A stretch of 61,848 nt of DNA, the filler included, from Kipferlia bialata (taxonomy: Eukaryota), in the NCBI GenBank assembly GCA_003568945.1. It is 4 parts of 4 records of this genome, joined end to end, with 100 filler letters (N's around TTAATTAATTAA, not from the genome) between each part and the next. Parts side by side here need not be neighbours in the genome. Positions count along the whole stretch, not along the records: positions 43,918 to 57,345 come from BDIP01000387.1; 3 more parts are not named here. One strand, 5' to 3'. The notes under the pieces were generated by a model. The model saw only the letters and a program-made list of their open reading frames with translations. It ran no database searches and was not told the DNA's origin. Within the stretch, counting starts at the first letter, position 1. Every line of letters begins with the position of its first letter. Below are positions 28,916 through 61,848 of the stretch, one piece after another. Position numbers and translations under genes: made by a program.

Positions 28916-31900
28916 ATGGCGAAGAAACGGAGAGAGAAGAAAGGGAAGGGGAAGGTATGATGAGTGGTGGTGCAGACGTTGCCGGGGTGATCACTTTCGT
29001 CACTGATTTCCACTGTTCACATTGAATTGGTCTGCACTCCACACACTAGTACGTGTGGAGTGTCACAACAGCATGTCTATTTATGAAGTATTTACATAAG
29101 ACGTACACTAAATGGTGACCCCCCCCCCCCCTCCTCCCCCTCCTCCCCCTTCCCGTCTCAACATGTACCAAGTGCCTCTCCAGTGGTATGTCTGAATGCA
29201 CTCCCCCCCCTCTCACCCATAGACCATGCTGTCCCTGGACATTGGGTCAGACGTGCCTGCCCCTGCCCCTGTGGAGGAGCCAGTAGAGGAGGAGAGGGGA
29301 GAGACCCTGGATGAGAGGTAGATACACAGTGGTCATTGCTATACCCTAGTTCCATAGCCAGTATCCCATTGCCACACCCACCCTCAGGGTCAAGTCTAGC
29401 ATCAGGGCCAATCTCAGCCACACAAACAGGAGCATTGGGTCCAGTCTGGGCCGCTCTCTGGGCCAGTCCCTCGAGAGCAGACACAGGCTCAGGTATCAGT
29501 GGGTGGTTGTATATATTACATGTCCTGATGAGTGGGGTACATTGCCTCCCATCACAGATTCATACTCTAATGGTTTAAGCACCTTTGGAAAGGACATCCC
29601 CCCCCCCCCCTTTCCTTCCTTACCCCAGGGAGGACAGCGACAGTGACTCGCTAGGGGATGACGGCATGGACGGGGCCTTTGACGACTATGAGTACAGCAA
29701 GGGGAGGTGCGTAGCTGGCTGTAGTGTAGTCTGAGTCATGGTGGGTACATACAATTCATGTACACTGTGTCTCTAGTGTAGAGTCTTTATTTCAGGGTGT
29801 TTGCCGTTGGTAGGCCCACCCCCCAGGTGTCCAAGAGACCCAGCCCAGTAGGTACGGGGTGTATAGACTGATTGGGTTACACTGATACGACCTAGTCCTT
29901 TGGATGGCTCAGTCATGGGACACACTCACCCTCCTTACCCTAGGGTCCCAGCCTGTGTCGAGGGCTGGGTCCAGGAAGCCCTCCCCCAGTGGCTCCACTG
30001 CCAACTCTCCCATGGCTAGCCCCAGGTGGGGTGTTGGTCTCTCCCTATACCTCTCTATATCCCCTCTCCCTTCGTCTTACCCTAGAGTGGGTGCCAAGCG
30101 GTTCCCGACCTCGGGGGGCACAGGGGGAGTGGTGGGTAGCCTGGCTGCCTGTAAGAAGTGGCTGGTCAAGAGCAGGGAGAAGGTGGGGGGGATTGTGTCA
30201 GACGTGTATTATCTATGTGCTCTCTGCCCGTTCTATTATTCACCTAACCCAGGCTGAGAAGGCCGCCCTTGAGTCATGCACCCAGCACATATCCGGCAGT
30301 GCAGTCAGTGTCATGGTCGTGGGTACGCAGGAGACATATACCCTGTACCGTTCAAATTCCACCTTCCTCTCTGCCCTCTGTCTTCCTCTCTCCTTCACCC
30401 CAGGTCACGTTGACTCTGGCAAGAGTACCCTGCTGGGTCACCTCCTGGTGTCACTAGGTATGCTGGGTTCTATGCTTCTACCACCTATCTTCACCCTCTC
30501 TCTGTATATACACACATGCACCTGACCCCCCTAGGCCTTGTGGATCAGAGGGAGCACCACAAGCACAAGCAGGAGTCCGCCAACATGGGCAAGGTACCAT
30601 AGCGATACAAGTTCCATTACAGTGTAGGAATCAAGGGTGTCCCTCTAATATAGCCACTCCCGACCCGAAAGGCCTGCTTGTCCTGTATAGATATGAATAT
30701 ATACATATATCCATTTTATATATATCTAATATTCCCCAGGCCTCCTTCTCCTACGCATGGGCCCTGGATAGCGGCAAGAGAGAGCGCACCTCAGGTGTGA
30801 CCATCGATGTGGCTGTGCGTGCCGTGCCTGTACCCTCCACCATAGTGGGGGGGGACCACGACCTGCCCCTCATTGTGATGGACTGCCCAGGACACAGGTG
30901 CTCTCTCACGCTCTGCTCTCATACTGTATGTACCTACCTTACTATTAATACCCCCCCCCCCTCTTTCATCCTAACCATTAGGGACTATGTGTCCAATGTC
31001 ATCACTGCATGTGGAGTGCCAGACTGCGGTGTGCTTGTGGTGTCAGGTGCTGTCAACGAGATGGAGACAGGTCTCTTCAAGGTATGGGGATGCCTTGCCC
31101 CTGGACCACTGTAGTATAGTAGTAGTATATCCCCCCCGCCCCTGTCTAACCCTCTAGGGAGGCCAGACAGTGGAGCATGCCCAGCTACTAAGGGCAGTGT
31201 CCACCAGGGCCGTGATAGTGGCTGTCAACAAGCTGGACACCCTACCAGCTGACAAGCAGAGGGACAGGTTCATAGAGGTCGTCAAGGTGGGGGCACATTT
31301 ATGTGTTATATGAAGAGTGTCCATTAACGCTGTCCCTGACCCCCCAGGCTGTGGGTCCCCTCCTGCAGAAGAGGCTGAGGCTTCGGAAGGTGGCCTTTGT
31401 ACCCGTGAGTGGGCTGGCCGGGACCAACCTTATATCCAGCACAGGTGGGGTGGGGTATGTACAGTCTAGGTGTCTGTTGCTGCACAGGTCTCTCTTCAGC
31501 AGACCCCCCTGACCCCAGGCGAGGACCCCACCTCTGTGTTCCCCTGGTGGGACATGAGAGATGCAGAGCTGGCAAAGCTCACCTTCACCCCCAAGGAGTG
31601 CACAGAGAGGGCTGAGGCAGCAGCAAAGTGAGTGAGGTGGTGTATTGTGACTCTGTCAGATGGTACTGTCTCTCTACTGTATCCACCCCTATCCCACCCC
31701 CAGGTCTCTCAAGACAGCTGTGGCTGCTGGCACTGTCGGCTCTACAGTGACCGGTACAGTCATGGGCCCCACCCTAGTGCAATCCATGCTGCCAGTGTAC
31801 AGGGTGAGACTCTCCCACTATATATCCCCCCCCCTCTCTCTCTACCCCTCTACCCTCCAGTCCAAGCAGGGTGCCAGCAGTGAGGCCAGGGCCAAGCAGC

Positions 31901-33096
31901 CACCCAGGCTAGTTGTGCTGGGTGGGGGTGTGGTGGCCCAGGGGTCAGACCAGATGATGGCCACAGGGTGCCCACACGGTACGTCTCTGTCTCTCTCCCT
32001 ATGTCTATGTTGCACACACACTCTTTCTATCTCTTACTCCAGGTGCCTTTGCGTCCGTGTATGTCGACAGGGGACACCTTGTTCGCAACGCCCCTCTCCT
32101 CCTCTCCCCCTCCAACCTGCTGGTCACCGCCAAGGACTTCAGACCCATGGCAGGCAGGAGGAAGGGTGGCTACTTCTACAGGTATGGGGGTGTCTAGTCT
32201 TGTGTCTCTTTTAGTGTCTCTAGTGCTCTATCAATAATGTATCTCCCCCCTCCTCATCTATAGGGCCGGTGAGTACGTGGACGTGTGGCTGGAGGCCGCC
32301 CCCCACCAGCTGCCCTCTGCCTCTGCCACATCCCCAGACGCCCAGGTACTCTCTCTCTCCCTCTCCTATACTCTGTCAATCCTACCCCCCCTTCCCTCTC
32401 CCACCCCCAGGACATAGCCGATGCCTGTGTGCCAGGGGCAGTGCTGGACTTTGGAGGACTGCCAGTGCCCACAAGGTATGTATATATGTATATGTTAATT
32501 TGTGTGAATAGCTTCGTCTCTATGTCTCTTCTATCCCCCCCTCACTGTAGGGACCCCTGGGTGTGCCCCATTGTGGACAGGATCAAGTGCCGCATCAGGA
32601 CATCCGACATGGAGAGGGCCCTGATCGTGGGTGACAGTGTCGATGTGTACATCGGGGTGTGCTCCATCGGGGCCACCCTCAACAGAATCAACAAGGTGGG
32701 TGTGCATGTATATAATCATGCACGGATCCCTGCAGTCGACACTATGAAGTCCACATCCCTGTTTCCTGACCATCAGGTGTTTGACCGCACTGGTGCCATT
32801 GAGAAGAGACGCCCCACCTCTCTGGGCTCCAACAGGGATGCCCTGGTTGACCTTGTCCTGTCGACACATGCCATGTGCTCACTCTATGCATCAGGTGCCC
32901 ATACCTTACCCATCTTGCATAGAATCACGTAGGCAGTGTATAGGATCATGGTGACACATCTTGTATTGATGTTTTGTAGTCTGTACATATCCCCCCTCAC
33001 CGCTAGGCTCCCGTGTGCTGGGGAGGGTTGTTGTCAGACTGGCAGGCAAGACTGTCGCAGTGGGTGTGGTTGAGAAGGTGCAGGAGGTCATGAAGT

Positions 33097-33098
<2 letters not shown>
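28916..33098 (+). CDS. HBS1: HBS1-like translational GTPase (eEF1A/eRF3 family), multi-exon
   Basis: G1 VVGHVDSGKSTLLGHLL, GKASFSYAWALD, ERTSGVTID, DCPGHRDY, GGQTVEHA, VAVNKLD, FVPVSGLAGTNL; C-terminal LGRVVVRLAGKTVAVGVV; long low-complexity N-terminus. Confidence 0.85.
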
Positions 33099-33139
<41 letters not shown>

Positions 33140-33443
33140 AGAGGATGTGTACGACTGTGGTATTCGAGGTTTCAAGAGGGTGTGAGAGTATCTAGGTCTT
33201 GACAGTGGTTGTACGACGTGGCTGAAGGCGTGGTAGAGATGTGTGAGGTTTCTATTTATTGTGGCGAATATACTCATACAAGTGAGCAATGTGTTAGGTT
33301 GAGAGGTCTTTAGAAGTCGTGCAGTGAGTGGTTACAAGGTATATACTAGCCAACAACGTATATCACTAACAGTAATTCAACGTCTATTCTAATACAGTAG
33401 GGTGTCTTGTCACACATATATACGAATGACCACCCGAGTCTCC

Positions 33444-43817: not shown

Positions 43818-43917
43818 NNNNNNNNNNNNNNNNNNNNNNNNNNNNNNNNNNNNNNNNNNNNTTAATTAATTAANNNNNNNNNNNNNNNNNNNNNNNNNNN
43901 NNNNNNNNNNNNNNNNN
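43818..43917. other. Artificial contig linker (N44-TTAATTAATTAA-N44)
   Basis: Same 100-bp structure as the other two linkers. Confidence 0.95.
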
Positions 43918-44291
43918 TCACCCCCTCATACAGATGGTCAACTTGTGGGATCCCCCCCCGCACCCCTCCCCCCTTCCCAACTCACCATATTGCCAGTATA
44001 TACCTCCTCTATCTCGTTTACTATATATATATATATATATATGCAAAGGTCTCTGTGTATTCCACACATATACGTATATATCAGTATTGTATTGTCGGCT
44101 ATGCATGTGTGACAATCTGAATCACACAGACTGTATGTATATACCTGAATGTCTGCTTGATTCTCTCACTCTCAGTCTGAGAGTCTCAGATGGGTGCAAG
44201 AGTCTCCATATTGCTCTTCCTTACCTATAGCCTTCATTTCTATTTGTATTGCCCCAGTCACTATATATCTGAATGTTAATTCTAACCCTCA

Positions 44292-47200
44292 GATGGGTGC
44301 AAGAGGAGTGGGACTTGAGCCTCGCGGTTATCTGCGCATTGGGGCTCCAGTGAGAGTAGTCAAGGGTGGGTATATCAAATCATTGTTATGTATCAGACAT
44401 TCTTCTATATGCCTATATTACTTTAATATATAGGCCTCTATATACACAGTGATACTACTTCTTTAGAATGGTGTTACAGTAGTGTTATTCACTGCTCTGA
44501 TACACCAACAGCACTATCCATCAGTTAGTGTATCTTATGACCAGGTGTCAATAGAAACGACCTGGGAGTGCTAGTTGGATCACACAAGACTGACAAGAGT
44601 CGCGTCGATGTCAAGGTACCTTGCTCCATACTAGATCGGTAATGACTGTCCCATTATATTATATTATATACTAAGTATATAGTATGGATATTAGTGTTCA
44701 GTCGCGTCAAGGTCAAGGTACCTTCCAAATAGGGCTTCAAACAAATATATATGACTTACACTCCATACTATCTCCATGAGATAATGATGAGATGATCTCA
44801 TCATCAGTGGTACGGGACCGGTACTGTTAAGGACGTTCCCGCCTCCTGTCTGGAGTATATCAACATGGTTGTGGTGGACGCGGAGCAGAGGAAGAGGGAT
44901 GAGAGAGAGAGGATGGACAGACAGATTCTGGAGAGCGAGATTATGAAGAGAGAGAGAGTGGGGAGAGAGAGACAGACGCTGGCCGATGCTGACTGGAAGA
45001 GAGAGCAGGCATCGATTGTTGATGCTCTACAGAGTGAGGTAGAGTCTCTGAAGAGTGAGGTTGCCTCTCTCAAGGCCGAGAGGCAGAGCAGCACTGCCTC
45101 CTCTTCTCTCTCCTCCTTCTCCCCCTCTGCCCTAGAGGGAGTGCAGACACTGACAAAGAGGGCAAGGGTGTTTGACAGCGTGGCACTCTCAGGTGCTGTC
45201 GAGAACCTCGAGGTGGGTATATATATATATTAATATATACACTAACTAAAAATGAATATCCATAGCGTAAGTGGTATATACAAATATTCATATGTATATA
45301 TATATGTATGTATATGAAGAGTTTATAGTAAATATATGCATATATGTATTGATATATATGTATCCTGGATACTCTACGTACATATATGTGTGTGAGTGTG
45401 TGATAGTGAGTATACTCACCCTAGACGTACCTCCCCCTTGTTCAGGGGATAACAGCCCAGGCAGAGAAGCTGAGAGAGTTCATCAAGGAGAACAAGAGGA
45501 GCGAGGTATATATACGGTATTCAATGACAATTCATCCACTCAATCCCCCCCGGCTCACACCTACTTCTATATATACTTATATCACTCTCCTATGCCATAC
45601 TACCTTCTCCCCATGTGATATACATCTCACCCCCAGCTGGTCCCTAAGGAGTGCTCCACCCTCTCTGCCTCTCTAGCCAAGATGCACTCTGCCTACCACA
45701 CCAGTCTGGCCTCTCTCACTGCCGTGGACTTCAAGCCAGAGGATGCAATGGAGATAGTGAGGTATTGCATGTGTTATACTGCTGCGCTGAGACTGATTGT
45801 GTTATACTGTATACATATATACGTGTCATACTCCTCTCACCCCAGGTCCGCAATCACTCTCCTCTCCGCCCTCTCCTCTGTCAGACTGGTCCCCCTGCCC
45901 CAGGACACTGCACACCTCACACTACTAGAGACACGCAAGTACATTCAGGTGAGGGTAGTTCTAGAGATGTTGCGTGCACTCTCTCTCTCTATTTAACAGC
46001 GGGTTAGTTCATTGCCAAACTGTTCACTGACCTTAGGGAGACAATTATAACATATATATACATTTACATTTACCATCATATTCATACTTTAAGTATGAAT
46101 CATACTTAACCCTAGGTTGAGCAGTTCAACCAGGCTGTCAGAGAGCTGGTGGAACTAGTGGGACCCATCATCGACATACAGGTACTTTATGTGTGCTACG
46201 TACGTATATTCTATTCCTGTGTTATTGTCTCATACTTGCCATCGGATACTCTTCTATTGTCTGATGAGTAATACTGCTGTTTGTATACATTGTATTGACT
46301 ACAGGCCACCATGGAGCAGTACATGAAGGACCTAGAGTGTCTAGAGACACCAGACACTGAGGTATGTAGGGAGTCATGAAACACTATTACAACTGGATAT
46401 ATATATAGCTTTGGGTATTACCCAATGACAAGTTCTTTAAATAGTATATCTATCTATATCTAGAGACACCAGACACTGAGGTATACACCAACTGATGAAT
46501 CAGTATACTATATATGGGCCTACGTACTTGTAATCATAGCCACTATATACAATACTCAATGTGGCTAGAGGGTCTAGAGGGTCTAGAGACACCAGACACT
46601 GAGGTATGAGGGATCAATCACTAGTATATACAGTATATACATACATTCATTATGCTTAATATATACTGTGTACCCATGGCCGTAACGCCCAGTCCCTCCC
46701 TGCCATTGACCAGGAGTGTGCTACCATTGTATACTCAGTATACATACACAATACTCACAGTTAACACTACCAACACATATTTAACCCTAGGCTCTGACAG
46801 CCCTTGACCAGGAGTGCGTCACTCTGCTAGACACCTATATATATACTCTATATATAGTGTATAGCGTTTAGGGTATTTGTAACCCTAGGCTCTGACAGCC
46901 CTTGACCAGGAGTGCGTCACTCTACTAGACACTCTGAACAGTCTAGCCAAGGACCAAGCTGAGGCAGAGACACTGCTAGAGCTGTGGGAGCAGGTGTGTG
47001 GTAAGTACAAGGCAGTGTCTTTAAGGCACAGATACTATATACTATATTTGTATGATCTGACTAACTTATGTGTCCACTACACTGTACTTGATGTAGTGTA
47101 TAACTAACACCAACTGGGTGTCACCCAGACCCCCAATGTGACTCAGGCCCAGGCTGATGATGAGGAGTGTATACTATGTATACTATGTATACTATGTACA

Positions 47201-48386
47201 CTGTATGCACTATATATGTTAAGCAGATGTACTGTACCTAATAATACTTACCCCCCAGACACCCCATGTGACTCAGGCCCAGGCTGATGATGAGCAGTGT
47301 GAGGTGGAGGTGCTGCAGTTCAGGCATGATTATCTATATATATATGATTATATATATACGTATTCTATATATATAGATATGCATAAGTACATCCAGGCTG
47401 ATGACGAGCAGTGTGAGGTAGAGGTGCTGCAGTTCAGGTATGAATACACATATATTAATATACATAGACAGTAGTATACATTGTATACATATACAGTAGT
47501 ATGTATATATGACATATGTACTAATGCGGGAGCAGTGTGAGGTGGAGGTGCTGCAGTTCAGGTAGGAGAGTATACCAACATACATATATACATATACAGT
47601 AGTATATATATTAATGCCATATATACTATAATGCGGGAGCAGTGTGAGATGGAGGTGCTGCAGTTCAGGTATATAGTTATGTATGTGTGTACATATTATA
47701 TGTACTACAAATACATACACACAGTAGTGTGTTAATTGTCATCATGTATACTATAATGCGGGTAGGAGTGTGAGGTGGAGGTGCTGTAGTTCAGGTATAT
47801 ATACAATAGTATATGTGTGTGACATGTATACCATTAGGTTAGGAGTGTGAGGTGGAGGTGCTGCAGTTCAGATATGAGAATACATATATATATATATATA
47901 TATACATAATGACACACTCTGTAGAGACTCTCCCCCTATTGATATTTCAACGTATGTATGGCTTCCCACTTTCTCTACCAACTCCCAGGCTCAAGAAGAT
48001 GAAGTCCAAGCCAGCCGAGGAGAGAGCACCCATTGAGGCTGAGATAGCCACACGTCAACAGACCCTGGCCTCTATGCAGCACAGTATCCAAGAGAGGGCT
48101 ACGCTCACTAGGGAGCTGGCACCATACACACACCTACCCAAGGTATATGTACTATATATGTAATACCATGTATATTTACATGTCACACACCTGCCCAAGT
48201 TACGTATAGTATATATAGTATATATAATATAATAATATATATATGATATCGCTATTCTTAGGACACCATGCACTAATCCAATAGGTTGCCCAGGCCCTCG
48301 GCCAGCCCCAGACCCCACTCGAGACAGCCCTGCAGAACCAGGCTGTGAGGGGGGTGGGCATGATGGTCAAGAAGCCAGTGTGCTAG
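44292..48386 (+). CDS. Lineage-specific coiled-coil protein with short SH3-like N-terminal beta region, multi-exon; start uncertain
   Basis: Exons YLRIGAPVRVVK / GVNRNDLGVLVG...VDVK / WYGTG, heptad text IVDALQSEVESLKSEVASLKAER, LTALDQECVTLLDTL, ending GVGMMVKKPVC*. Confidence 0.6.
47126..47872 (+). repeat. Intronic exon-echo array (about 7 copies)
   Basis: GAGCAGTGTGAGGTGGAGGTGCTGCAGTTCAGG variants at ~47292, 47406, 47530, 47637, 47765 and 47842, plus an acceptor-side echo at 47126. Confidence 0.9.
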
Positions 48387-48776
48387 AGAGGTAGAGAGAT
48401 GTAAGGGTGAGACTCTCAGCCTGAGACGTACTCAGAAAGTGTATATTTGTGAGGTGTGATGCTAGGGGATGCATAGGCAGTGAGGGTAGTAAGATACTAT
48501 CAGTGTGTTACAGACAGCATCAAGACATACATCTATGAGTGCAGAGGTACACTAAGCACATGCTTCTAGTGTCACTAGAAACTCAAGTGGGTCTCCATAG
48601 TGAAGAAGAATAGATCACTAAGTCTTCACAATTATGAAAACCATCTCCAGTTTAGCGGGTTGACATTGATATTACGTGTCTGACTCTCTAATAGTTAGAG
48701 TGGGTGAGATGACCTCTGATTTGTGGGTTTGGAACGACAACTGCTACACCCTTTCTTCTCACACTCAAAAACATCA

Positions 48777-51700
48777 ATGTCTGACCCAGAGCTGTCTCTT
48801 TACACCAGGTATGTGTCTGAAATATACATTAACATATGCATAATTGTGAATAGTAGCATTCCTATTGTGTTATGTGTTGCTATATTGTGTAAGAGTATAG
48901 GTGAAGAGAGAGGCGTCATAAATGAGTAAGAGGATGAGTCTTCTGTACAAATGTCTGCTTCACACCTCCTTGCATATGCTGCGTGCATCTGGTTTAGCGT
49001 ACATCTCTCTCTCTCTCTCTCGTAGATATGTTTGTGAGGAGGGGTGGTTGTTCACGCTCTTTCCTTGTATAATGCATAGCATATGTGACATGTTCAATGT
49101 GTATATTGGTACCATTGACACTGTTCTTGTGCTCAGATGTTGAGTCTCTATACATGTATGTCTTTGTCAGTAGTACCGTTACCGTATTAAATAGGTGTAC
49201 ATACTTGTATATCTCTACATTGTTCAGTCCCACACTGAGTATGTGTGTGTTTTCTCCCTTTTTCTCTTGCTTCACCCCCCCCCCCCCCCCCCCCCTCTCT
49301 TCCCCTCATATACTCTCTCTCTCTCTCTCTCTCCCTTATACCCCAGCCCCCCGGTGCCCCCCTCAGTCCCCCCTCCAGTAGTGTGTCCACCCTGGTGTCT
49401 GATGTTGGAGACATGCTCCCCTCCACACTAAGGGTGTCCTCCCTGGCTGTGGTGGGTGACCACTCCTCAGACATAGCATCTGCCCTATGTGCCTGTGGGA
49501 GGTATAGACCAGAGACAGAGGGGGATGGAGACTACCACTTCAGTGATGCGGATGTTCCCATCCCCGACCACTCTCCCTGCCCTGTCTCCATGGGTAGTAT
49601 AGGGTGTGTACCAACACAGGGTATGCAGGTGGACCTAGTGCTCATAGCCAACACCCTGGACACACATCCAGAGTGGAGGGGGGCGTTACGTGCACTGTCT
49701 CATACCCTGACCCCTGGTGGGTGGATGGTGGTGAGGGGGAGAGAGAGGGCTGGGTGTGAGCGGCAGAGTGTGCTTAGGGAGCTGACACGTCTTGGATACC
49801 CTGACCTGTCAGATGGCAAAGGGGGTAGGGGGTGTGGACACTGGGCAGTGCTGGAGGGGGAGACCCTCTCTCTCCCTGGGTTTGGCGATGCATGCTTCTC
49901 AGCCATGCCCTCCCTGCACACTGCACCCAACCAGGTGTACTACATAGCAGTGCACAAGCCAGAGACAGCTGTCACACCCACGCAACAGAGTACTAAAGGA
50001 GTGGAGAGTGACACTCTGGGACTGGCTGCTGCACTAGATGTGCTGGTGCAGGAGAGGGACATCAGATGTAACCCCCTCAGCTATTTTGCATCCACCTCTA
50101 GGTCGGTAGAGGTGTACTGTGCACCCACTAATATGCCTATGGTACAGGGTCACGCTGACGTGCATGGGGTGGAGAGTATAGTGGTCAGGGACATATCATG
50201 CCCAGAACAGAGGGAGAGAGAGAGACCCTCTGATGGTCTGGGTGTCCCTGCCCTTGTACTCTTGCAAGGTGTATCCAGTGAGGATGCTACCTCCTGTCTC
50301 CTATCCGTAGCCCCCCACACCCCTATGCTACTGGTGTCCAGTGCCTCCCCCCTCCCCCCCTCCACCCATGCCTCCCTGTTGACCTGTGGCATGGTGTGCA
50401 TAGACATGGCAGACAGACTGGGTTGGTGTGCAGCACTGTACTACAGGCCACAGACAGCTGACAAGGACAGAGAGAGGGCACACTTCAGAGCCATGAGGCA
50501 GACCAAGGACTGGGCCAGGATATCAGGTGGGGGGTCTGGCACATTATATGAAGTGGTATGATTGTATTCTCACACACACACACGGTCTCTCCCCTCTCAT
50601 CTTAGGCTATGTGCTGGGCGTGGCCTCTGGCAAGGGCGGCCCCCTGAGCCCCAAGGCCAAGGAGGAGTTCAACACTCTCTGTGAGACAGCACCTGATGTG
50701 GACGTGTATAGGTTCCTGCAGAGCCATGTACCCCCAGGCACGGGGGTCGCCAATGGGGAGAGGGAGAGGCTATACGCAGTGAACAGGGCTAAGAAGAGGG
50801 CGAGGGAGATTGCCGGTCTGCTGGAGAGAGGTGAGGTTGGGGTGAGGGTGCAGCCCAAGGCCATCCTGGATCTGTGCTGTGGGGATGGGAGTATAGCGGC
50901 TAGTCTGGCTAGAGAGTACAGGATACCCCCCTGTGCCGTGGTGGGTGTGGACATCAGAGAGCCCGAGGACAGGCACGGGACTGTGTTTGTGCAGCACAAC
51001 ATAGACAATGGTGCACTGGACCCAGGGGCCTATGCAGACCTCGCAGTGTGTATGCAGGTGGGTATCAATATATCTCTAGTATGTATGCATCACACCCTCC
51101 CTCACCCCCAGGCCCTGCACCACGTGTCTGCCCTAGACCATGCCCTCTCCACTCTATACAACTCCCTGCGGCCTGGGGGTGTGTGTCTGATCAAGGACGT
51201 CGAGGCAGCCACCCCCTCAGACCGTGCCCAGCTGGACATGCAGCACGGGGTGTACTCGTGTGTGGGTGACCCCCCCGAGATGTCTCCCGAGGACTTCACC
51301 TCCCAGTTTGTCATGTACTTCAGAGGCCCCAAGGAGGTGGAAGGGGTGGCCAGGGAGGTGGGGTTCGAGATCACATACTCGGCACCTGCTGGAGACAGAG
51401 GTATAGGCTCTAACTACTGGCTGGTGCTGAGGAAGCCAGGGGGTGACAGGTCGCAGGATAGAGTGAAGAGCAAGGTGAGGGTTGTGCTCAGAAGTGAGAA
51501 GGAGAGACACGGCTGGGACAGGAACAACTGGCGTGATAGAGATGGAGGTGACAGGGACTATAGGGGTGATAGGGGTGAGGGACAGGGTAGGTACAGTAGG
51601 GGCAAGCGGTCCTTTGGGAAGAGGAGAGGGGGGTACAGCCCAGACAGGTGGAGAGAGAGTGACAGAGATTCCGACAGAGACGGATACAGGCGGTATGGCA

Positions 51701-51783
51701 GAGACCGGTCCCCCTCCCCCAAGAGTAGAACAGGACATAGGGGAAGGGGGAGAGGCAGGGGGAGGGGGAGTGACCGATATTAA
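48777..51783 (+). CDS. Class I SAM-dependent methyltransferase with degenerate N-terminal MTase-like region and RS/RG-rich C-tail
   Basis: Motif I ILDLCCGDG, VVGVDI, DLAVCMQALHHV, LYNSLRPGGVCLIKD. Upstream relic LSHTLTPGGWMVV. Tail RDRDGGDRDYRG...RGRGRGRG. Early exons are uncertain. Confidence 0.75.
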
Positions 51784-52154
51784 CTAATAGACATGGACTG
51801 TGTCACTGTGACACACAAACCAAGGGATAATGAATCTACAGTCACTAGGATATAACACTCACTCACACCAACGACTCTATTTGTACTCTCTGTGTTGCCT
51901 CCAACCCCTGGTGCCATACAGTAATATAATACAGTGGGGACTAGATGGTCAGCCCCCTCTACGGACACACCCAACGGACACCAGGGCGGATGCATATCAA
52001 TGTCACAACCCATCCCACCACTACGCCAGCCCCCCACCGACCCATCCTTTGCCATACTATGGTTATGACCTAGGATCGGGTATGGACTGACCAATAGCCG
52101 ACACTAAACGCTCTACCCACTACTCACTACGCCACCCACACCATGGCTCTGGAC

Positions 52155-53910
52155 CTAGTAGTCACGGGACCTGTCAGGGCCTCTGGAGGAGCTCCTGCTG
52201 AAGCGGCCTCCCTGCCTCTCGCCTCCCCTGCTGGGGCCTCTCGACCTTCCGTTGCTGGGGCCTCTGGAGCTAGACCTGTCTCCTCCTCTGCCTCCTCCAC
52301 CGCCCCTCCTGTCTCCGTCTCTGTCTCCACCCCTGGAGTGACCCCTAGAGCCTCCCCTGGAGTTGCTGCCACCACGGTCGCCCCTGCCGCGGGACCCGCC
52401 CCTGGAGTTGGCCCTGCTGCCACCCCTGGGGGAGGAAGCGGCAGAGCGCTGGATCTCGTGGGCGTGGGACTTGAAGTCGAACTTGTCGAGCACGTCAGAG
52501 GAGTACATCGAGCAGAGGATGGCACGAACCTCGTTCTCACACACCTGGGGGTGAGGGGAGGGGGGGGGGGTATTGATATGGTGTTCTGTCCTTAATGCCT
52601 CTTCTACATACATCTATACACGTCGGAGTATATATTGTATATGAGACTGGTAGAGTAGGTACCCTTGTCCACGTATACCCATACCAAATAGAATAGAATA
52701 GAATATACTGCATGCACGTCTAGACGTACCGTCCTGGCAGCCTCGTCGTTCGTGTTGAGCCAGAACTCCATGTGGAGGAAGGTGGGTCTGATCTGGGGGG
52801 TGAGACACAGAGGGGCAGGGGGGCAGGAGTGTGTTACTATCACCATGTGTGTCTATGTAGAGTATAATAACTGCACATACCTTGCAGACCACTCCGTTGA
52901 CCAGGGGGTGCATGGGGGAGGTGCCTCCAATCACAGAGAGCAGCACCATCAGGAACTGGGCCTTGAACTCAACCTGGGGGGTCAGGATGGACTCACATAT
53001 GATATATACCACACTATAGCATACCCCCATACCTTCTCCATGACGCCAAACTTCTTCTCGGAGCTCTTGCTGTTGTGCATCTTGATGGACATGGTGCACC
53101 CGTCCTTGTTGGCGGGGTGCTCCCACTTGGGCTCGATGTCACCCTTGAAGTAGTGGTATATGGCATACCTGGAGTGAGAGGGGGAGGGGGACACATAGAC
53201 TATATAGTATATTGGGTAGAGTGACTGAGTGAGAGAAAGATACGCAGTCACATTGGTGGATACAACACTGACTGTCGACCAAGCCAGAGTAGCCCCACCA
53301 CCACAGTATATGCAGCATCCTGAATCATATATGTATATCAATGTGACGTACTGGACAGACATGTTGCCGATGGAGACGAGGGTGTCCATGAAGTGGTACA
53401 GGCACCAGAACTCCTCAATGCTGGAGAAGGTGGACACCTTGTGAACGTTCTTGGCCCAGGACTCCTCGCTGGTGCTCTGGCTCTTCTTCGACTTCTTGTT
53501 CTTGGGGATCTGGGGTGAGCAGGGGTATACAGGGTGGTATATAGATGCAGGTGTATCATATATATCAATCAGAGACACACACAGATGCGTTCCCGTACCC
53601 TAGTGGAGAAGTGGAGGGACCAGCTCTCCTGGAAGTGCATGCCGGAGATGTCAAACATCTCCAGGTCCTCATCGTCGGACTCCTCCTCAGCAAGAAGGTC
53701 ATCGGACTCACGGGGGGTGATAGGGCCGGCGGTCTCCTCGGGGACAGCCTCCACAAGGGGGAGAGCAGCCACAACGGCAGCAGCCTCGGTAACCTGCTCC
53801 TCAACCTCCTCGGGGGCGGTCTCGGCCTCAACCACAGCCTCCTCAGCGACAGCAACCATCTCTGGGACCACCTCAGGGGTCTCAGTGACCACAGTCTCAC
53901 AAACACTCAT
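52155..53910 (-). CDS. EIF4E: Cap-binding translation initiation factor eIF4E family protein, 6 exons, acidic N-extension and RGG C-tail
   Basis: ESWAKNVHKVSTFSSIEEFWCLY, YHYFKGDIEPKWEHPANKDG, LLSVIG, VNGVVCKIR, MEFW, FKSH. Confidence 0.9.
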
Positions 53911-54210
53911 ATTGCTCTGTTGTATACTCAGTCCAAGCTCTTCCTCCTGTATACAAGCTCCAGCGACCGAAACACGACGAAGGGCAGGCACCTTCGCATC
54001 GATATGGTTGGACTACACCCTTTTCTTGAGTATTCGAGCAAAAACGTGTTTTGCTCAATAAATAGGGGTTCGTTCTCACTTTCTTACAATTGGGGTGGTC
54101 TCTCCACTGTGGGTGCTGTTATTGACGTGTCACACTCTGTCCATCGCTCTAGACTGCTCTCTTGAGCTGTAGGCAGTTGCTTGCCATCCCTGGGCAGTGG
54201 GAGTGCAGAC
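53911..54210. promoter_or_regulatory. Putative bidirectional promoter between eIF4E and TGS1
   Basis: 300-bp spacer between divergent ATGs, containing an AT-rich core and lacking microsatellites. Confidence 0.5.
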
Positions 54211-56427
54211 ATGTCCAGAGGGGAGAGAGGTACACGAGACTATCACCCAACTAGTCGGTATCATAGTGATAGAGATGATAGGGACTGGCGGGAAAGGGGG
54301 AGGGGGGGAGACAGAGACAGAGATGCATCTAGGGGAAGGGGCTATGGGAGGGATGACAGGAGTGATAGGTGGGAGAGGGATAGTCGGGATCGAGTAGAGA
54401 GGGGTCACAGAGACCAGAGGGAGAGGGGTAAGGGGCACTCTCCCTCTAGGGGTGGAAGAGGGTCAGACTATAGGCGGAGAGAGAGTGGGTCAGGGGGTCG
54501 GTATAGCAGCAGTGGTAGGGATTCCGGGAGGGATAGGGAGGACACCTCTGTTGATGTTGAGGGTGTGTGTGTCACGACCCTCAATGCCTCAGACACATTC
54601 AGACCCTTCTCCACAAAGAACCAGGCTGCAACCACGGCAGCACAGAGACACGAGGTGGGGGAAGGTGCAGTGTCAGGTGTATATGGAGTATATCCAATCT
54701 CGTAGCTTCTCCCTCCTCTCCCTCACCCCCTAGGCCCGTACCGTTGTGAGAGCAGCTGGCCACATGCGTACAGCCCTGTCCTGCCAGACAGACGGGGGGG
54801 TGAAGGAGGGTGGGGGTGGGGGGGCTGGGAGTGAGGCCTCTGTGCCAACCTCTCTCTCCCTCCCCTTACCCCCTTGCATCAAGGTGTTGACAGGGGTGGG
54901 AAAGACAGAGGGAGAGAGAGAGGCTGGCAGTGCCTCCCCCTCCCCTGTGTGTGTCCCTGTCCCCCTTGGCCCTGTCCTCTCTGTCCTAGCTGCCGCCAAC
55001 ACCCCACCCCCCCTCTCCTCCCCCGACCCCCTTGCATGTTTCCACTGTCCCGACCAGCCATTTGGACATGCCATTGAGAAGTACTGGGCACAGCGGTACA
55101 GGTACTGTCTTATATGAGCATGTCTTTCTCTAGAAGTAGTAGATTCATGGTACAGGTGGATAGTAGTCTCTTCTCACACCCCTCCCACACTCACCCCCAG
55201 ATTGTTCCCTAGACATGACGAGGGCACAGGGTTTGTGGCAGACCCAGAGGGCTGGTACGTATACACATGTCTGAGTGTACCCTAACTGATCATTGCTGAC
55301 ATGCACTCTCATATTCTACATGTATGCCTGGGTTGTCTCAGACCCAGAGGGGTGGTACGTGTATACATATGTGTATACCTTTGGAGGGATATACACTTCT
55401 ACTCATTCTCATTATACAAACATTAATGAATATATAGTTTGCATCAGACACAGAGGGGTGGTGCGTGTCTTCACTTGGAATGGTTTCTCTCTGTTCCGTG
55501 TAGCCTTGTCCTCACCCCCCAGGTTCAGCACTGTCCATGTGGTCTTCTGTAGAAATAGTGTGTCTATATCATCACAATAGTGTGTCTATATCATCGCTAT
55601 TGAGCCCTCACCCCTCAGGTTCAGCACTGTGCCCGAGGCCATGGGCAAGCAGATAGGGGGTGTGATAGTCTCTGCCCTGGGCGAGGGCTCTGTCCTCTGC
55701 GACCCCATGTGTGGGTGCGGCACATCGCTCATCCACGCCCTCACTGCACACCCCTCTCTGACAGGGGTGGCAGGGGACATAGACCCCTTGAGGGTGGCCA
55801 TGTGCCACAGAAACTGCGAGATAGCAGGGGTGGCAGACAGGGTGTCCTTCTACGTGGCAGACTGTCTGTGCGAGGGGCCTGGGTCTCTATCCGCTGCCTT
55901 GGAGCGTGATGGGATCCAGTGCTCATGTGTCATCACCTCTCCCCCCTTTGGTGGCCCAGAGTATGCGACCAAGCCCACCTTCGACCTGGCCTGTGACCTG
56001 CCCCAGTGTCTGTCTGCCCTGATACCCAGTCTGCACAGGCTGAGTGACACCCTCTGTCTGTTGATGCCTAGGAACACTAGGCTGGACAACCTGCCTGCAC
56101 TGCTGCACCCAGACACACCTAGTACAGGGGGTGCATCCACAGACCCCAAGGTGGAGGGGTGCATCCTGACCCTCAACACCAAGCCCAAGATGTGTGCTGT
56201 CATGACGGGGGGGCTGGTGGATGCATCCAGGCCCAGGTGCTCACAGGCACTGCTGGCCAAGGCCAGGTGGGTATATATGCATATATGTGTGTATATATTT
56301 TCATATGTTGTAATACTTGTCTATTAATGATATTCTCACCCCTAGGTGGGTCATGAAGAGAGGCCCCCGTACCGGTCAGGGACAGGGACAGGGGAGAGGG
56401 AGAGGGGGGAAGCGGTGGAGGCGGTAG
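54211..56427 (+). CDS. TGS1: RNA cap guanine-N2 methyltransferase (trimethylguanosine synthase family)
   Basis: KYWAQRYRLF, EGWFSTVPE, DPMCGCG, GDIDPLRVAMCHRNCEIAGV, VITSPPFGGPEY, LLMPRNT. RS/RG-rich N-terminus; TAG at 56425-56427. Confidence 0.9.
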
Positions 56428-57345
56428 TGTTAGGATTACTTGGCCTAGTTGAGTTGTATATGTGTTCATTCTTCCATTGTTCTATAGGTGTATTGTGTTC
56501 GTATACTGATAGTGATATAGAGACCCATCAGCATATGAGTTCAGACCCACCTTGTGTCCTGAGTGGTTATGTGTACAACTTGAGCATCAGAGGACTGCTT
56601 TCATTATCATGATTCATTACGAAACAGTGTCATGACTAGACCCCAGGCATGGGTGTGGTATCAATGCATTGATGCGAGTATGCTACACGTTTTAGATTGA
56701 CGGAATACTGACAAGACTCTCTTTACATAGTTACATACAGACGAACACGCAGTACTCCCATCTAAAGAGCGAATCAGAGCGCGATTCAGAAGATCCAGGC
56801 TTTGGATACTAGGAACTAACTGCTACAGAACTGGTGGTCGGCCACACAGTCCTCCAAACTCACGGTCAACTACACACACTTTTGACGCACTAGGTTTATA
56901 ATAATAAGTGGTAACACATTGCCCTATGAACCCCTAGAAGACCGTAGCTGGATCTTGGTCGGACGACAGGCCCAATTCAATAAACATAGGTGATGTCAAC
57001 CTCTTTATGGCACCGCCAGGTATGGGTAACCTGCCAGCTTCCTAGAGTTTGCTCCAGTATGCACTCGCTCTCCTCTAGCAACCCCACAAGAATGTAGGAC
57101 TACTTTGCATTCAAGTTCTGAGGTAGGCGGTCCTTTTTTCACTTATGATGTCAAAGAGAACAGTGGCTTTGGTTCACCAAGAACCATCCAATGCAAAAAC
57201 AATGTTTATGAAATCCCCTTCCTTACACGTTAGATCTTCTGGCTCAATCGACTCTCCCTCTCTTCGGAGCCTTCCCTTCGGGGTTGGTCCTCCAAAAAAC
57301 TTTGTTTTAATACAGAGAAGATTAGCACGTCCCTCGGAAAGAGTC

Positions 57346-57445
57346 NNNNNNNNNNNNNNNNNNNNNNNNNNNNNNNNNNNNNNNNNNNNTTAATTAATTA
57401 ANNNNNNNNNNNNNNNNNNNNNNNNNNNNNNNNNNNNNNNNNNNN
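57346..57445. other. Artificial contig linker (N44-TTAATTAATTAA-N44)
   Basis: Same 100-bp structure as the other two linkers. Confidence 0.95.
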
Positions 57446-58291
57446 GGGGGGGGGGGGGGGGGGGGGGGGGGGAGAGAGAGAGAGAGAGAGAGAGAGGTAG
57501 TACCTTGTCTAGTCACAGGGTCTGGGGGCATAATAGTACCAGGGAGGTGATAGTCACTTCAGCGTCTTGTGTCTAGGGACACGATGGGGGGGGGGAGGGG
57601 AGATAGCGCACAGACTAAGTACACTCTAGACGGTCTAGATGGTTGGAGAGATGTGTCTCTTTCAGTCTGGGTTGCCCGTCGCCCTAGGCCCTTCCAATGT
57701 TGGGAGGGATTATAAATAGAGAGAGAGAGAGACCGATGTGTGTCATCATTGTCACATACTGTAGAGAGTGATGGCCTCAAGAGAGTGTGACAACGTTCAT
57801 AAGGGTTCAGCTAATGTTTGTCAAGCATCCACACGTGTAGGCTTTAGCCCCCTCCCTTTCATATCATTGTGAGTGACTCTGCTTAGCAAGAGAAGGGCCA
57901 CTGCTCTTGAGGGTTCTTAGGACTGTTGACATGCCAGGTACAGCTGGATACGTTTTGAATGAGTCAGTCATATACAAATATGTAATGTCTGAATACAATG
58001 GTCATTTGCTCTGCACATTGCATCATATACTGATGTCTCTCTTCCTCATGGACACTTTGCCAACCCTCAGACACCTTTACATCTCTTTTTTAGTGTTTCT
58101 CTCCCCCCCCCCCACCCCCCTCCCCCCTATCTCTTAACTCTCTGTACTATATATGTAGTTAGATATAGATAGTAGGGTCTCTGTCTCTATGAGATCCATT
58201 ACTAACCTGGTTATTCATCTGTCTCACTCATTGTTTTTGCCTCTCTCTCTGTCTCAGGAAAACAAGTCACAAGTTCCCCAGCACAACTCTT

Positions 58292-58330
<39 letters not shown>

Positions 58331-58699
58331 GTACACATTCGGTATTGCCATCGCCTTACCCAATCCCTCAGGGATTTGTATATTCAATGCGTTATATACT
58401 CAACACGCTCCTAGGCCATTCTTATATCTCTCTCTCTCACTCTCGCTCCTTCTTCCTCTTACATCCGGGCATATCGCTCACTCCCCTCACCCTGTCCTAA
58501 CCCCCCCCCCAGTCAAGCACAATGTTCTCTCTCTCTCTCTCTCGCTTCCTTTTCCTCTTATACCAGGCATTTCTCTCACCCCCCTCACCCTGTCACCCCC
58601 TGCCAAGCACAATGGATATATACTATATACTATATACTTTAATACTATATTCATTGTGCTATACTATATATTCTAACACTAGGCATTACTCTAAGACCC

Positions 58700-61600
58700 A
58701 TCACCCTGTCACCCCCTGCCAAGCACAATGGGTTTGGGAACCTGGTCTCACTGGGGGACTCAAAGGTAGTGTTTTATGGGTAGACATATGGATACATAGT
58801 AGTATGACAAGAGTTTTATATTATTGTATACATATATATATGGTTTGGGAGCCTGGTCTCACTGGGGCACTCAAAGGTATTGTTATACACACACATTAAT
58901 ATATGTGTATATTAAAGTATGACAAGAATAAGAGAGATATCAGTTATGTATATACACATATAAGCTTATACATACACATATAGTATGGGAAGCTTCTGGC
59001 ACTGGGGGACTCAAAGTTAGTGTAGTTATATGTGTAATCATAGATATATAGCAGTGTAACATAAATAATTGTAGTATTTAATGTGTATATACATATAGTA
59101 TGGGAACCTTCTGGTATTGGGGGACTCAAAGGTATGGATACGGTCATGAATACATGTATACGTACACCGACACATACACACACATATAGACATGTCACTA
59201 CCCCGGGCCATGCTGGTATACCGGATAATAGACACCTGAGTACACGCTCTATTCACATTATATATATGCACTATATATATATATACCCCAGGCCATGGTT
59301 GTATACTATAACCAGTATACTGTTTCAGATATATGCCAATATATGTTGATTTACTAAACGTATACCCCAGCCCATGCTTGTGTACTACAGCAAGTCTATT
59401 GCTATTTATATATATATTGACATTTTGTTTCCCTAGATGGGATATATACACTAATGCACCAGGCCATGCTCGTGTACTACAGCAAGTCAGACCGCCAGGA
59501 GAACACAGTAGAGTGCCTAATGCTGCAGGTATACCAGAACTGTACTCTCTCTCTCTCCCTGTCTCTGTCTCTCTCTCAATACATATATTTGAATGTCTAT
59601 ACATACCTATTAGCTGCATATCAGGAGACATAGATCCAAGTGTCCCTTCCCATGCTCCAGTTCAATTGCTGATCTCTCTCTCTCTCTCGCTATATATATA
59701 TATGTATGTGTATATGAGTATATTACTACATATTATTCCTACCCTAGGTATGCTCTGATGGCACTTACACCCAGGAGAGGGAGATATCTTTCTCTCTCTC
59801 TCTCTCTCTATGTATACATAATGAAATGAGAATGAGACCATAATATACTCACCCAGGTATGCTCTGATGGCACCCATACCCAGGAGAGGGTGGAGTGGCC
59901 CGATGACTATAGGTACTGTAGTCATATGCATACACTTCTCTATGTAAGCTATATGAATGTATATCTGTTTTGATAGTATATGTCTTTATTTATTCATTGA
60001 GTCTCGCTATCAGGTGTGTCCATTACACCAACGCTCTACACACATATGTATATGTACATACTACCACAAAAACGTTTTTACATTTCCACACTTACTCTCA
60101 GGCCTTTCTCCACATTCGCAGTGGCAGTGGGGGAGAACGAGGTATTTTTGATTATACACACAGAGAAATATCTATGAATATTTGTATCTCACGCCATAAT
60201 TGAGAGTTGCATAAAACTAATTCTTCTGATTATGTCACAACTATTCTCTCTTATCTCGCAATTGTCTTTACTTATCTCGCAGGTCTGGATCTTCACCTCT
60301 GAGTGCATGGAGGGTGCTGTTGTGCAGTGCACCTCCATCTATGCATACACTGTGGACACGGGGGTGTGGAGGGTAACGGAATTGACGTATATACTGCAGC
60401 ATATACCTGGTAGGATATACTATATATATGTGTGTACATGTGTACAGTGCACATCCATCTCTGCATACACTGTGGACACTGGGGCCTGGAAGGTAAGGAT
60501 TGTTTAATATACTCACACTTAGACATGGTATGATACACAGCATACACATCCCACCTCTCTCTGTGCATTATCTATGTATCCAATATTCGTAACCTAATGT
60601 CTTCCCCTGGCAGGACTAGTGGCCCAAGGTTATATAGATATTTATACCCATATATATATGTATTTATTACACCCTCTATGAATTCATATACTAATACCCA
60701 GGTCTTCCCCTGGCCACACTAGTAATCCCCAAAAGAGAATAGTATATACATGTGTATTCCTATATATATATCAGGTCTTGCCCTGGCAGGACGAGTGGCC
60801 CAAGGTCAGGGAGTGCAGGATGCACTTTAACCTGGGTAGTAAGGTATCCACATAAGCTAATGGTGCATATATATAGATTATTAGTGAATACAGATGCATA
60901 TGTGTGTGGCAGGGAGTGCAGGATGCACTTCAACCTGGGAGCCAAGGTATCCACACACATATTAGTATATATACTATTACATGTAAGATATGATTTTGAC
61001 GGATACTCTAGTTTTGGCGATGACCGTATTGTGTATTGTTGTCTTTTTCACTCAATAGATCTACTTTGGGGACCTCAACGGTGATTGAGAGGAAACCTAC
61101 TACATACGTATACATCACTTACTATATTGTATTGTCTCACCCTCTAGATCTACTTTGGCGGTGACCTTAATGATGACGGAGAGGAGTACTACTTCTACTC
61201 CCTTGATACCATGACAATGGGGTGGGAGGTCATGGAGGATATGCCAGAGAATGTGGGGTACGACCTTAAGAAAGTGTATTAGCATACTTATGTGTGTCTG
61301 GGTATTACTATACTCTCTAGATACCATGACTATGGAATGGGAGGAGATGGAGGATATGCCAGAGAATGTGGGGTTAGTGATACGAATATATATGTATATA
61401 GATTAACTAGCAATAGTCCATTTATGTAGGTAATAGGGTGGGAGGAGATGCCAGAGAACGTAGGGTATGTCGACAATACTCATGTTGGTATCTTCTATTC
61501 ATATTATTGTATACATCTTCTCTGTCCCCCACTATGTATGTACCTCATACCAGGTATGGCCATGCCGTTGTTGTCGGCTCCCTATTACCTCTCTCTCTCT

Positions 61601-61848
61601 CTCTCTCTCCCCCACTCTCCCCCTTCTCTATATTCCTCACACTTAGGTATGGCCATGCCGTTGTTGTGGGTGACACTACCCATTCTCTCTACTCTCTCTC
61701 TCTCTCTATCTATATATGTATATGACTATATATGTATTCATATATCGATGTGACACTTAGATATGGCCATCCCGTGGTCGTAGGTGACACTACTTATCCT
61801 CCCCCCCCCCCCCCTCTCTCTCTATATGTATATATTTATTCCTCACAC
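58700..61848 (+). CDS. Kelch-type propeller protein with many small exons; start unresolved, runs off window
   Basis: Exons VWIF...IYAYTVDTGVWR, EWPKVRECRMHFNLGAK, IYFGGDL...FYSLDTMTMGWEVMEDMPENVG and YGHAVVVGDT. Confidence 0.6.
58729..59136 (+). repeat. Intronic donor-side exon-echo array (4 copies)
   Basis: TGGGAACCTGGTCTCACTGGGGGACTCAAAGGT variants at ~58729, 58841, 58983 and 59098. Confidence 0.85.

What the first reader, a model, noticed from the sequence alone, without database searches (positions are those of the whole stretch)
48777..56427. Candidate RNA-cap writer/reader cluster: SAM methyltransferase, eIF4E and Tgs1 adjacent on one contig
Seen: TGS1 and eIF4E are head-to-head across 300 bp, a class I methyltransferase converges on eIF4E, and all three have RG/RS-rich tails. 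Established: Tgs enzymes N2-methylate m7G caps. In Giardia, Tgs2 makes m2,7G caps and one eIF4E paralogue prefers the trimethyl cap. Inference: this may be a co-regulated module that writes and reads a hypermethylated cap, possibly in an RNP condensate. Functional gene clusters are rare in eukaryotes, and chance adjacency is possible.
Basis: partly seen in the sequence, partly recalled or inferred. Interest (0 to 1): 0.75.

Follow-up and report, generated by a model that had tools for sequence, protein, structure and literature searches.

The report
Orphan cap methylase beside cap genes
Three spliced genes sit in a row in a free-living relative of Giardia: a cap-binding translation factor, a homologue of the cap-trimethylating enzyme, and an unstudied methyltransferase whose relatives are often fused to RNA-capping enzymes, so the last likely modifies RNA 5' ends, while the row itself is probably a local arrangement and not a conserved module.

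Summary
A class I methyltransferase (A), eIF4E and TGS1 are adjacent, all 11 introns in the tested stretch are spliced in one RNA run, and only these three genes in the window carry RG/RS tracts. The new result concerns gene A. It belongs to an unnamed family found in protists and giant viruses. In 43 of 150 hits the domain is fused to cap enzymes (guanylyltransferase, N7, VP39, FtsJ-like, XRN, Tgs) or to a degenerate Tgs-like domain; in Carpediemonas it is fused to a Tgs with an intact DPPW motif. So all three genes are likely cap-related. The module reading is weaker. The Giardia orthologues of A and Tgs1 have unrelated neighbours. A and this eIF4E are lineage-specific duplicates. 300 bp is below the species' mean intergenic length. 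This eIF4E lacks the Giardia eIF4E1 substitutions. TGS1 has Phe at the cap-stacking Trp, a change that inactivates Giardia Tgs2, and A has lost two near-invariant residues. Co-regulation was not tested.

The parts
48777..48808 (+). Candidate first coding exon of gene A (inferred; needs one further small exon to be in phase)
   Evidence: GT donor and A-rich pre-ATG context; phase mismatch with 49347; the RNA contig runs 159 nt beyond 49350; public model P0001 starts at a different exon
49347..51783 (+). Gene A: decayed first methyltransferase copy, middle alpha/beta domain, family methyltransferase domain (aa about 422-675 of P0001), RG/RS/RD tail. Exons 49347-50526, 50606-51057, 51112-51783
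51484..51780 (+). RG/RS/RD-rich C-terminal tail of gene A (about 99 aa)
   Evidence: shorter tails in paralogue P0002 and Dysnectes P0003
52155..53910 (-). eIF4E, 383 aa: acidic N-terminal arm, core with W56/W73/W102/E103 equivalents, RGG tail. Exons 53910-53599, 53509-53352, 53168-53033, 52973-52881, 52792-52730, 52544-52155
52158..52463 (-). RGG/RS-rich C-terminal tail of eIF4E (about 102 aa; 8 RGG in the protein)
53911..54210 (.). 300 bp divergent interval between eIF4E and TGS1 start codons; presumed shared promoter region (inferred)
   Evidence: species mean intergenic distance 596.5 bp
54211..56429 (+). TGS1 orthologue, 531 aa, SPP-type motif with Phe for the cap-stacking Trp. Exons 54211-54654, 54734-55101, 55201-55254, 55619-56266, 56346-56429
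   Evidence: human TGS1 3EGI/3GDH, E 1.4e-17
54211..54543 (+). RD/RG/RS-rich N-terminal arm of TGS1 (about 110 aa)
55255..55618 (+). TGS1 intron 3 (364 nt) holding two extra copies of the exon-end plus donor and one extra copy of the acceptor plus exon start; only the outer pair is seen joined
   Evidence: (D2, D5)

Best explanation
These are three spliced genes that each likely act on the RNA 5' cap, and they probably became neighbours only in this lineage, without forming a dedicated pathway. TGS1 would add N2 methyls to m7G caps of small nuclear RNAs, probably weakly (family shown; activity inferred). eIF4E would bind m7G caps for translation through its intact Trp/Trp/Glu pocket (residues shown; preference inferred). 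Gene A is a 5'-truncated duplicate of a tandem methyltransferase (shown) from an unnamed family that likely transfers a methyl from SAM to a capped RNA 5' end, a base or a phosphate, with the decayed Tgs-like partner domain predicted to hold the cap (fusion pattern shown; substrate and chemistry inferred). eIF4E and TGS1 probably share a short bidirectional promoter, as compact housekeeping genes often do (inferred).
For: Family of A: 206 representatives at E<=0.001, best 150 examined; conserved R..R, DxGCxxG, HH, REHD, DxxHGxY. 8 of 150 carry Pfam-recognised cap or 5'-end enzymes: P0007 VP39+N7, P0008 Tgs, P0044 VP39, P0079 Tgs-like, P0101 capping enzyme, P0115 N7, P0126 Tgs, P0127 XRN+FtsJ. 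38 of 150 match the core of partner domain X (30 of them are seeds and match by construction); union 43 of 150, or 43 of the 83 with a flank of 90 aa or more. X aligns to the Carpediemonas-type Tgs domain (hhalign probability 88.7, E 2.6e-6, 144 columns). In an AlphaFold model of P0065 the rows confined to X are three guanine-N2 methyltransferases: RsmD-like Z 15.6 (rmsd 2.5, 155 aligned), Trm14 Z 15.0 (2.9, 160), human TGS1 Z 14.9 (4.5, 160). The fusions fall in several parts of a FastTree tree, with different partners and orders. The viral fold search puts giant-virus methyltransferases first, one in a protein annotated PCIF1. 3 of 20 distinct viral genes are fused to cap methyltransferase-like domains (L006, L011 weak, L022). 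For a local arrangement: in Giardia 0 of 4 neighbours of the A orthologue and 0 of 4 of the Tgs1 row are annotated as cap genes; the A paralogue (GIQ80747) and eIF4E paralogues (GIQ81688, GIQ84886, GIQ83745) have accessions far from each other and from this locus; 0 of 72 neighbouring viral ORFs are cap enzymes.
Against: A triple of one pre-named class of 25 genes among 17,389 is expected only 4.6e-5 times per genome (0.014 over 300 classes), and all three carry RG tracts found nowhere else in the window; both favour selection. The A domain itself resembles small-molecule methyltransferases most (best Z 18.7, many ties), and no characterised RNA enzyme stands out. It is also fused to non-cap domains (PhyH, Longin, SAP, kinase-like, helicase), and many members stand alone. 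The window protein's own middle domain matches X only by one short motif (probability 4%, E 0.01). Giardia is a distant, rearranged genome, so missing synteny there is weak evidence; Carpediemonas, Dysnectes and Aduncisulcus could not be tested.
Confidence: 0.55

Rival explanations
1. Selected writer/reader module: TGS1 and gene A write a hypermethylated cap, this eIF4E paralogue reads it, and linkage keeps them co-regulated.
For: All three genes now look cap-related; low chance of a triple per class; RG tracts in all three only; A and eIF4E each have paralogues elsewhere, so this copy could specialise; A is fused to a Tgs in Carpediemonas.
Against: No linkage in Giardia; the Carpediemonas fusion joins the other A copy (d1) to a DPPW-type Tgs, not these lineages; eIF4E keeps W56 and W73 where Giardia eIF4E1 has F and L; TGS1 has the W-to-F change; the 11-mer shared upstream is not significant, about 4% of shuffles and 10% of random window pairs.
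Confidence: 0.2
2. Readers, not writers: both methyltransferases have decayed into cap- or RNA-binding scaffolds that gather with the RGG-tailed eIF4E in an RNP granule.
For: TGS1 differs at three tested residues: W766F (W143F inactivates Giardia Tgs2), T673V and N704S (Ala mutants keep 13% and 5% in human). A has Cys for the motif I Gly (Gly in 149 of 153 domains) and Val for the REHD His (His in 141 of 153), and its first copy has lost HH and REHD. All have long RG tracts, and the species keeps arginine methyltransferases.
Against: TGS1 keeps K646, Y647, E667, F670, S671, D696, D719, N731, S763, Y771, R807 and N808 equivalents. Loss of the stacking Trp would weaken cap binding too. An organism with about 125,000 introns may need its TGS1; whether it has a second one is unknown.
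Confidence: 0.12
3. Gene A is not a cap enzyme; it methylates a metabolite or protein, and the finding is a chance eIF4E-TGS1 pair.
For: Fold and profile neighbours are small-molecule enzymes; a chance adjacent pair is expected 0.03 to 0.09 times per genome for 25 to 40 cap genes; giant-virus genes fuse readily.
Against: 8 of the 11 Pfam-recognised partners among the 150 hits are cap or 5'-end enzymes, and the commonest partner is a decayed guanine-N2 methyltransferase. No matched control family was tested for fusion rate.
Confidence: 0.13

Closest known systems
Human/yeast TGS1 (trimethylguanosine synthase; PDB 3GDH, 3EGI)
   Same: N-terminal KYW..LF and EGWFS elements, SAM-binding Asp residues, SPPxGGP.Y and PRN motifs
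   Different: Phe for W766, Val for T673, Ser for N704; long RD/RG/RS N-terminal arm
Giardia Tgs2 (single N2 methylation, DPPW motif)
   Same: The Tgs domain fused to family A in Carpediemonas has DPPWGG; partner domain X derives from such a domain
Class I-like eIF4E; Giardia eIF4E1 (TMG-binding) and eIF4E2 (m7G-binding)
   Same: W56, W73, W102, E103, R157 and W166 equivalents present (numbering beyond W73 is from recall)
   Different: Thr and Met at the 112/113 positions, acidic N-arm, RGG tail; lacks the F56/L73/Y113 pattern of eIF4E1 and the F56/F73/I113 pattern of eIF4E2
Cap methyltransferases RNMT, CMTR1/FtsJ, VP39, PCIF1, MePCE/Bin3
   Same: Class I fold; these are the enzymes to which family A is fused (MePCE excepted)
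   Different: Family A has its own motifs and no Pfam or NCBIfam family above a specific cut-off; MePCE is only rank 46 among generic hits
Unnamed giant-virus SAM methyltransferases (Pithovirus LCPAC304, Satyrvirus, Mimivirus LCMiAC02, Marseillevirus LCMAC101)
   Same: Top fold matches over the whole domain; Nucleocytoviricota clusters in the Atlas
   Different: No function found in my searches; the window's copy is part of a tandem, partly decayed eukaryotic protein

Membership tests
TGS1 (cap guanine-N2 dimethyltransferase) | Methyltransf_15 domain with N-terminal extension | tested here: met
TGS1 (cap guanine-N2 dimethyltransferase) | S/D-P-P-W motif with cap-stacking Trp | tested here: not met
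   SPPF; Phe at this site inactivates Giardia Tgs2. It is an orthologue by descent; an active enzyme is not established
TGS1 (cap guanine-N2 dimethyltransferase) | Two rounds of N2 methylation of m7G | not testable with these tools
   needs an enzyme assay
eIF4E | IF4E domain with aromatic sandwich and cap-binding Glu | tested here: met
Giardia eIF4E1-type TMG reader | F56, L73, Y113 and a 130-166 insertion | tested here: not met
   W56, W73, M113 here against section 7 of PMC3388326
Giardia eIF4E1-type TMG reader | Phylogenetic grouping with eIF4E1 | not tested
   no Giardia eIF4E sequence was returned
Giardia eIF4E1-type TMG reader | Binds m2,2,7G and not m7G | not testable with these tools
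   needs a pull-down
Unnamed cap-associated methyltransferase family (gene A) | Profile match with R..R, HH and DxxHGxY motifs | tested here: met
   191.7 bits to the family profile, which includes it; motifs
Unnamed cap-associated methyltransferase family (gene A) | Motif I Gly and REHD | tested here: not met
   C500 and K588-D589-V590; a derived, perhaps weakened member
Unnamed cap-associated methyltransferase family (gene A) | Tgs-like partner domain X in the same protein | tested here: inconclusive
   one short motif only; alpha/beta pattern at low confidence
MePCE/Bin3 phosphate methyltransferases | Specific sequence or fold affinity | tested here: inconclusive
   6DCC rank 46 among generic hits; no Bin3 family listed
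Functional eukaryotic gene cluster | Conserved linkage in relatives | tested here: inconclusive
   not linked in Giardia by locus-tag order; closer relatives not available
Functional eukaryotic gene cluster | Co-expression or shared start site | not testable with these tools
   only contigs of one RNA run

The most novel reading that the evidence does not exclude
Family A is an undescribed cap-modifying enzyme shared by protists, Giardia included, and giant viruses, adding an unknown methyl mark to RNA 5' ends (about 0.6 on its own). In this genome a duplicate has been gathered with an altered TGS1 and an RGG-tailed eIF4E into a co-regulated unit that writes and reads a non-standard cap.
Probability: 0.2. 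Interest if true: 0.85.

Novelty: new variant of a known kind. Interest (0 to 1): 0.6.

Why it matters
Cap structures of fornicates are not fully determined (PMC3388326, 2012), and some cap-methylating activities had no enzyme assigned in a 2015 review (PMC4615557). A family that giant viruses attach to their capping enzymes, and that Giardia keeps as a hypothetical protein (GL50803_32697), is a concrete candidate that can be assayed at once. If the linkage were also selected, it would be a rare non-metabolic gene cluster in a eukaryote.

Tried and rejected
No whole genome was held, so paralogue counts are lower bounds and RG tails could not be counted genome-wide. A homologue search with the TGS1 exon found nothing; no second TGS1 and no other fornicate TGS1 could be checked. 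eIF4E searches returned only this species. Contig depth was not used to rank expression, as the tool forbids it; runs X3 and X4 gave no cover, which is no evidence. A shared upstream 11-mer is exact only at 48744 and 54013 but was picked after the fact and is not significant. Rfam found only one sub-threshold match in 43918-61848. One viral scan found nothing. In the metagenome scan 11 of 80 loci were true family members; none showed eIF4E or TGS1 nearby by a single-sequence search, and most are short. The other 69 were dropped as generic methyltransferases; they are a poor control, and their 4 weak N7 hits lie on the methyltransferase itself. A Tgs search of viral records covered 3 of 5 and was uninformative. 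No solved structure is a close relative of A. The tree is FastTree only; the IQ-TREE run did not finish. No complex was predicted, as binding is not claimed. Paper searches that showed no description of family A or of this cluster in their listings; subscription journals and bioRxiv supplements are not covered, and the primary Giardia eIF4E paper was not held.
Full report
Observation. Gene A runs on + to 51783, eIF4E on - from 53910 to 52155, and TGS1 on + from 54211 to 56429. Start codons are 300 bp apart and the converging stops 371 bp apart. Pfam confirms all three identities. Contigs of run X2 skip 11 of the 11 modelled introns in 49350-57000 at GT..AG, and the DNA run X1 skips none; the two runs are one sample. 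Public proteins identical to the window's A exons and eIF4E are annotated as Kipferlia bialata KIPB_002372 and the next accession. RG/RS-rich tracts occur in these three genes and nowhere else in the window. The window has runs of N with linkers, so adjacency is certain only within 43918-57345.

TGS1. The best solved matches are human TGS1 (E 1.4e-17). It is the SPP type, not the DPPW type of Giardia Tgs2. Most cap- and SAM-contacting residues listed in PMC2709555 (passages) are kept, but the stacking W766 is Phe, T673 is Val and N704 is Ser. In Giardia Tgs2 the same Trp-to-Phe change was as severe as Ala (PMC1865056, passages). A weak enzyme is therefore plausible; natural compensation cannot be excluded.

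eIF4E. The core keeps W56, W73, W102 and E103 equivalents. It has neither Giardia pattern described in section 7 of PMC3388326. The same species has at least one close paralogue group (75% identical over the matched core; accessions GIQ81688, GIQ84886, GIQ83745), whose gene models stop or run into unrelated sequence after the fourth exon, so their tails are unknown. Cap preference cannot be read from these residues.

Gene A. A search of 1.84 billion representatives gave 206 relatives; I examined the best 150. They form one family with its own motifs. It includes fornicates (Kipferlia, Dysnectes, Carpediemonas, Giardia, Hexamita), intron-bearing metagenome loci and giant viruses. The window's protein is collinear with residues 339-1116 of the paralogue KIPB_001589 (31% identity) and is its sister in the tree: a 5'-truncated duplicate. 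Its first methyltransferase copy is decayed. Its second has Cys for the motif I Gly and KDVE for REHD, changes largely shared with the paralogue's second domain.

The partners of this domain are the main evidence. Pfam was run on 66 hits singly, on the other 84 as a set, and on two of those again singly. Eight carry cap or 5'-end enzymes and three carry other recognised domains (PhyH, Longin, SAP). The commonest partner, X, is hit in 38 of 150 (30 seeds, 8 not). X aligns with the Carpediemonas-type Tgs domain, though a two-sequence Tgs profile finds only 4 of the 32 seeds directly. In a confident model of P0065 (mean pLDDT 85), the rows confined to X are RsmD-like, Trm14 and TGS1; that all three are guanine-N2 methyltransferases is partly from recall. 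X lacks the PPW motif, so it is likely a decayed, binding-only domain. Among 20 distinct viral genes, 3 are fused to cap methyltransferase-like domains and one has a weak X hit; others are fused to kinase-like, helicase or unknown regions, and 0 of 72 neighbouring ORFs are cap enzymes. The fold alone is generic class I and closest to small-molecule enzymes, so the substrate is inferred from company, not shown. I put the chance that the family acts on RNA 5' ends at about 0.6 to 0.65.

Is the row a module? For 25 cap genes among 17,389 (PMC5874029, passages), a triple is expected 4.6e-5 times per genome, or 0.014 over 300 functional classes (class size and number are my assumptions, and fragmented gene models would raise the figure). 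That is low for one genome but reachable in a scan of this size. In Giardia, the ortholog table of PMC3091692 (supplement 3, single rows only) places the A orthologue among hypothetical genes of 1203, 2523 and 351 bp and a PIP5 kinase, and the PIPMT row (taken as Tgs1 from recall of the alias) among four unrelated genes. This assumes locus tags follow gene order; eIF4E is not named in that table, and hypothetical neighbours were excluded by length against recalled eIF4E sizes. The 300 bp gap is below the species mean of 596.5 bp and so is not special. No significant shared upstream motif was found. The RG tracts are striking, but such tracts are common in RNA-binding proteins (established knowledge), A's relatives have them too, and this species keeps arginine methyltransferases (PMC7743719, passages).

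Verdict. The writer/reader module is possible (0.2) but has no positive support beyond adjacency and tails, and two of its predictions failed. The lasting result is the unnamed cap-associated methyltransferase family, for which six paper searches showed no description in their listings. Other papers seen: PMC13393146 and PMC2904801 (abstract and outline), PMC2588526 and PMC4615557 (passages), supplements of PMC7743719 and PMC5887430 (searched, no relevant rows).

Noticed in passing
window 55230-55630: TGS1 intron 3 contains near-exact copies of the exon 3 end with its donor (three in all) and of the acceptor with the exon 4 start (two in all); the RNA contig joins only the outer sites. Looks like tandem duplication across splice junctions.
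   Followed up: partly
window 46340-47900: The upstream gene shows the same pattern more strongly: an exon end plus donor repeated five or more times at 47290-47900 and further repeated exon ends at 46340-46920. A possible route of intron growth or gain in this genome.
   Followed up: no
window 21860-21959, 43818-43917, 57346-57445: Runs of N flanking a 12-base all-frame stop linker; the window is joined from pieces, so genes across these points may not be neighbours.
   Followed up: partly
window 56430-57000: The TGS1 RNA contig continues at least 570 nt past the stop codon, a long 3' UTR.
   Followed up: no
window 29944-33331: Translational GTPase of the EF-Tu/EF-G type on + (Pfam GTP_EFTU), in another piece of the window.
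   Followed up: no
window 11974-13422 and 22406-24297: An LRR plus Vps62 protein and one or two MFS transporters.
   Followed up: no
P0127, P0101, P0007, L006:3664-6630: Large viral-type proteins that chain several 5'-end enzymes: XRN + A + FtsJ-like + VP39-like; capping enzyme + N7 + A; VP39 + N7 + A; FtsJ-like + VP39-like + A.
   Followed up: partly
P0008, P0126, P0075, P0025, P0002, P0003 (first domains): All fornicate first copies replace the family's DxxH His with Asp, while the second copies lose the REHD His; complementary changes that suggest divided roles.
   Followed up: no
L004:5515-6537 and L019:5863-6696: Two family-A genes on one viral contig.
   Followed up: no
L018:4356-5300: A gene with three histone folds near a viral family-A gene.
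   Followed up: no
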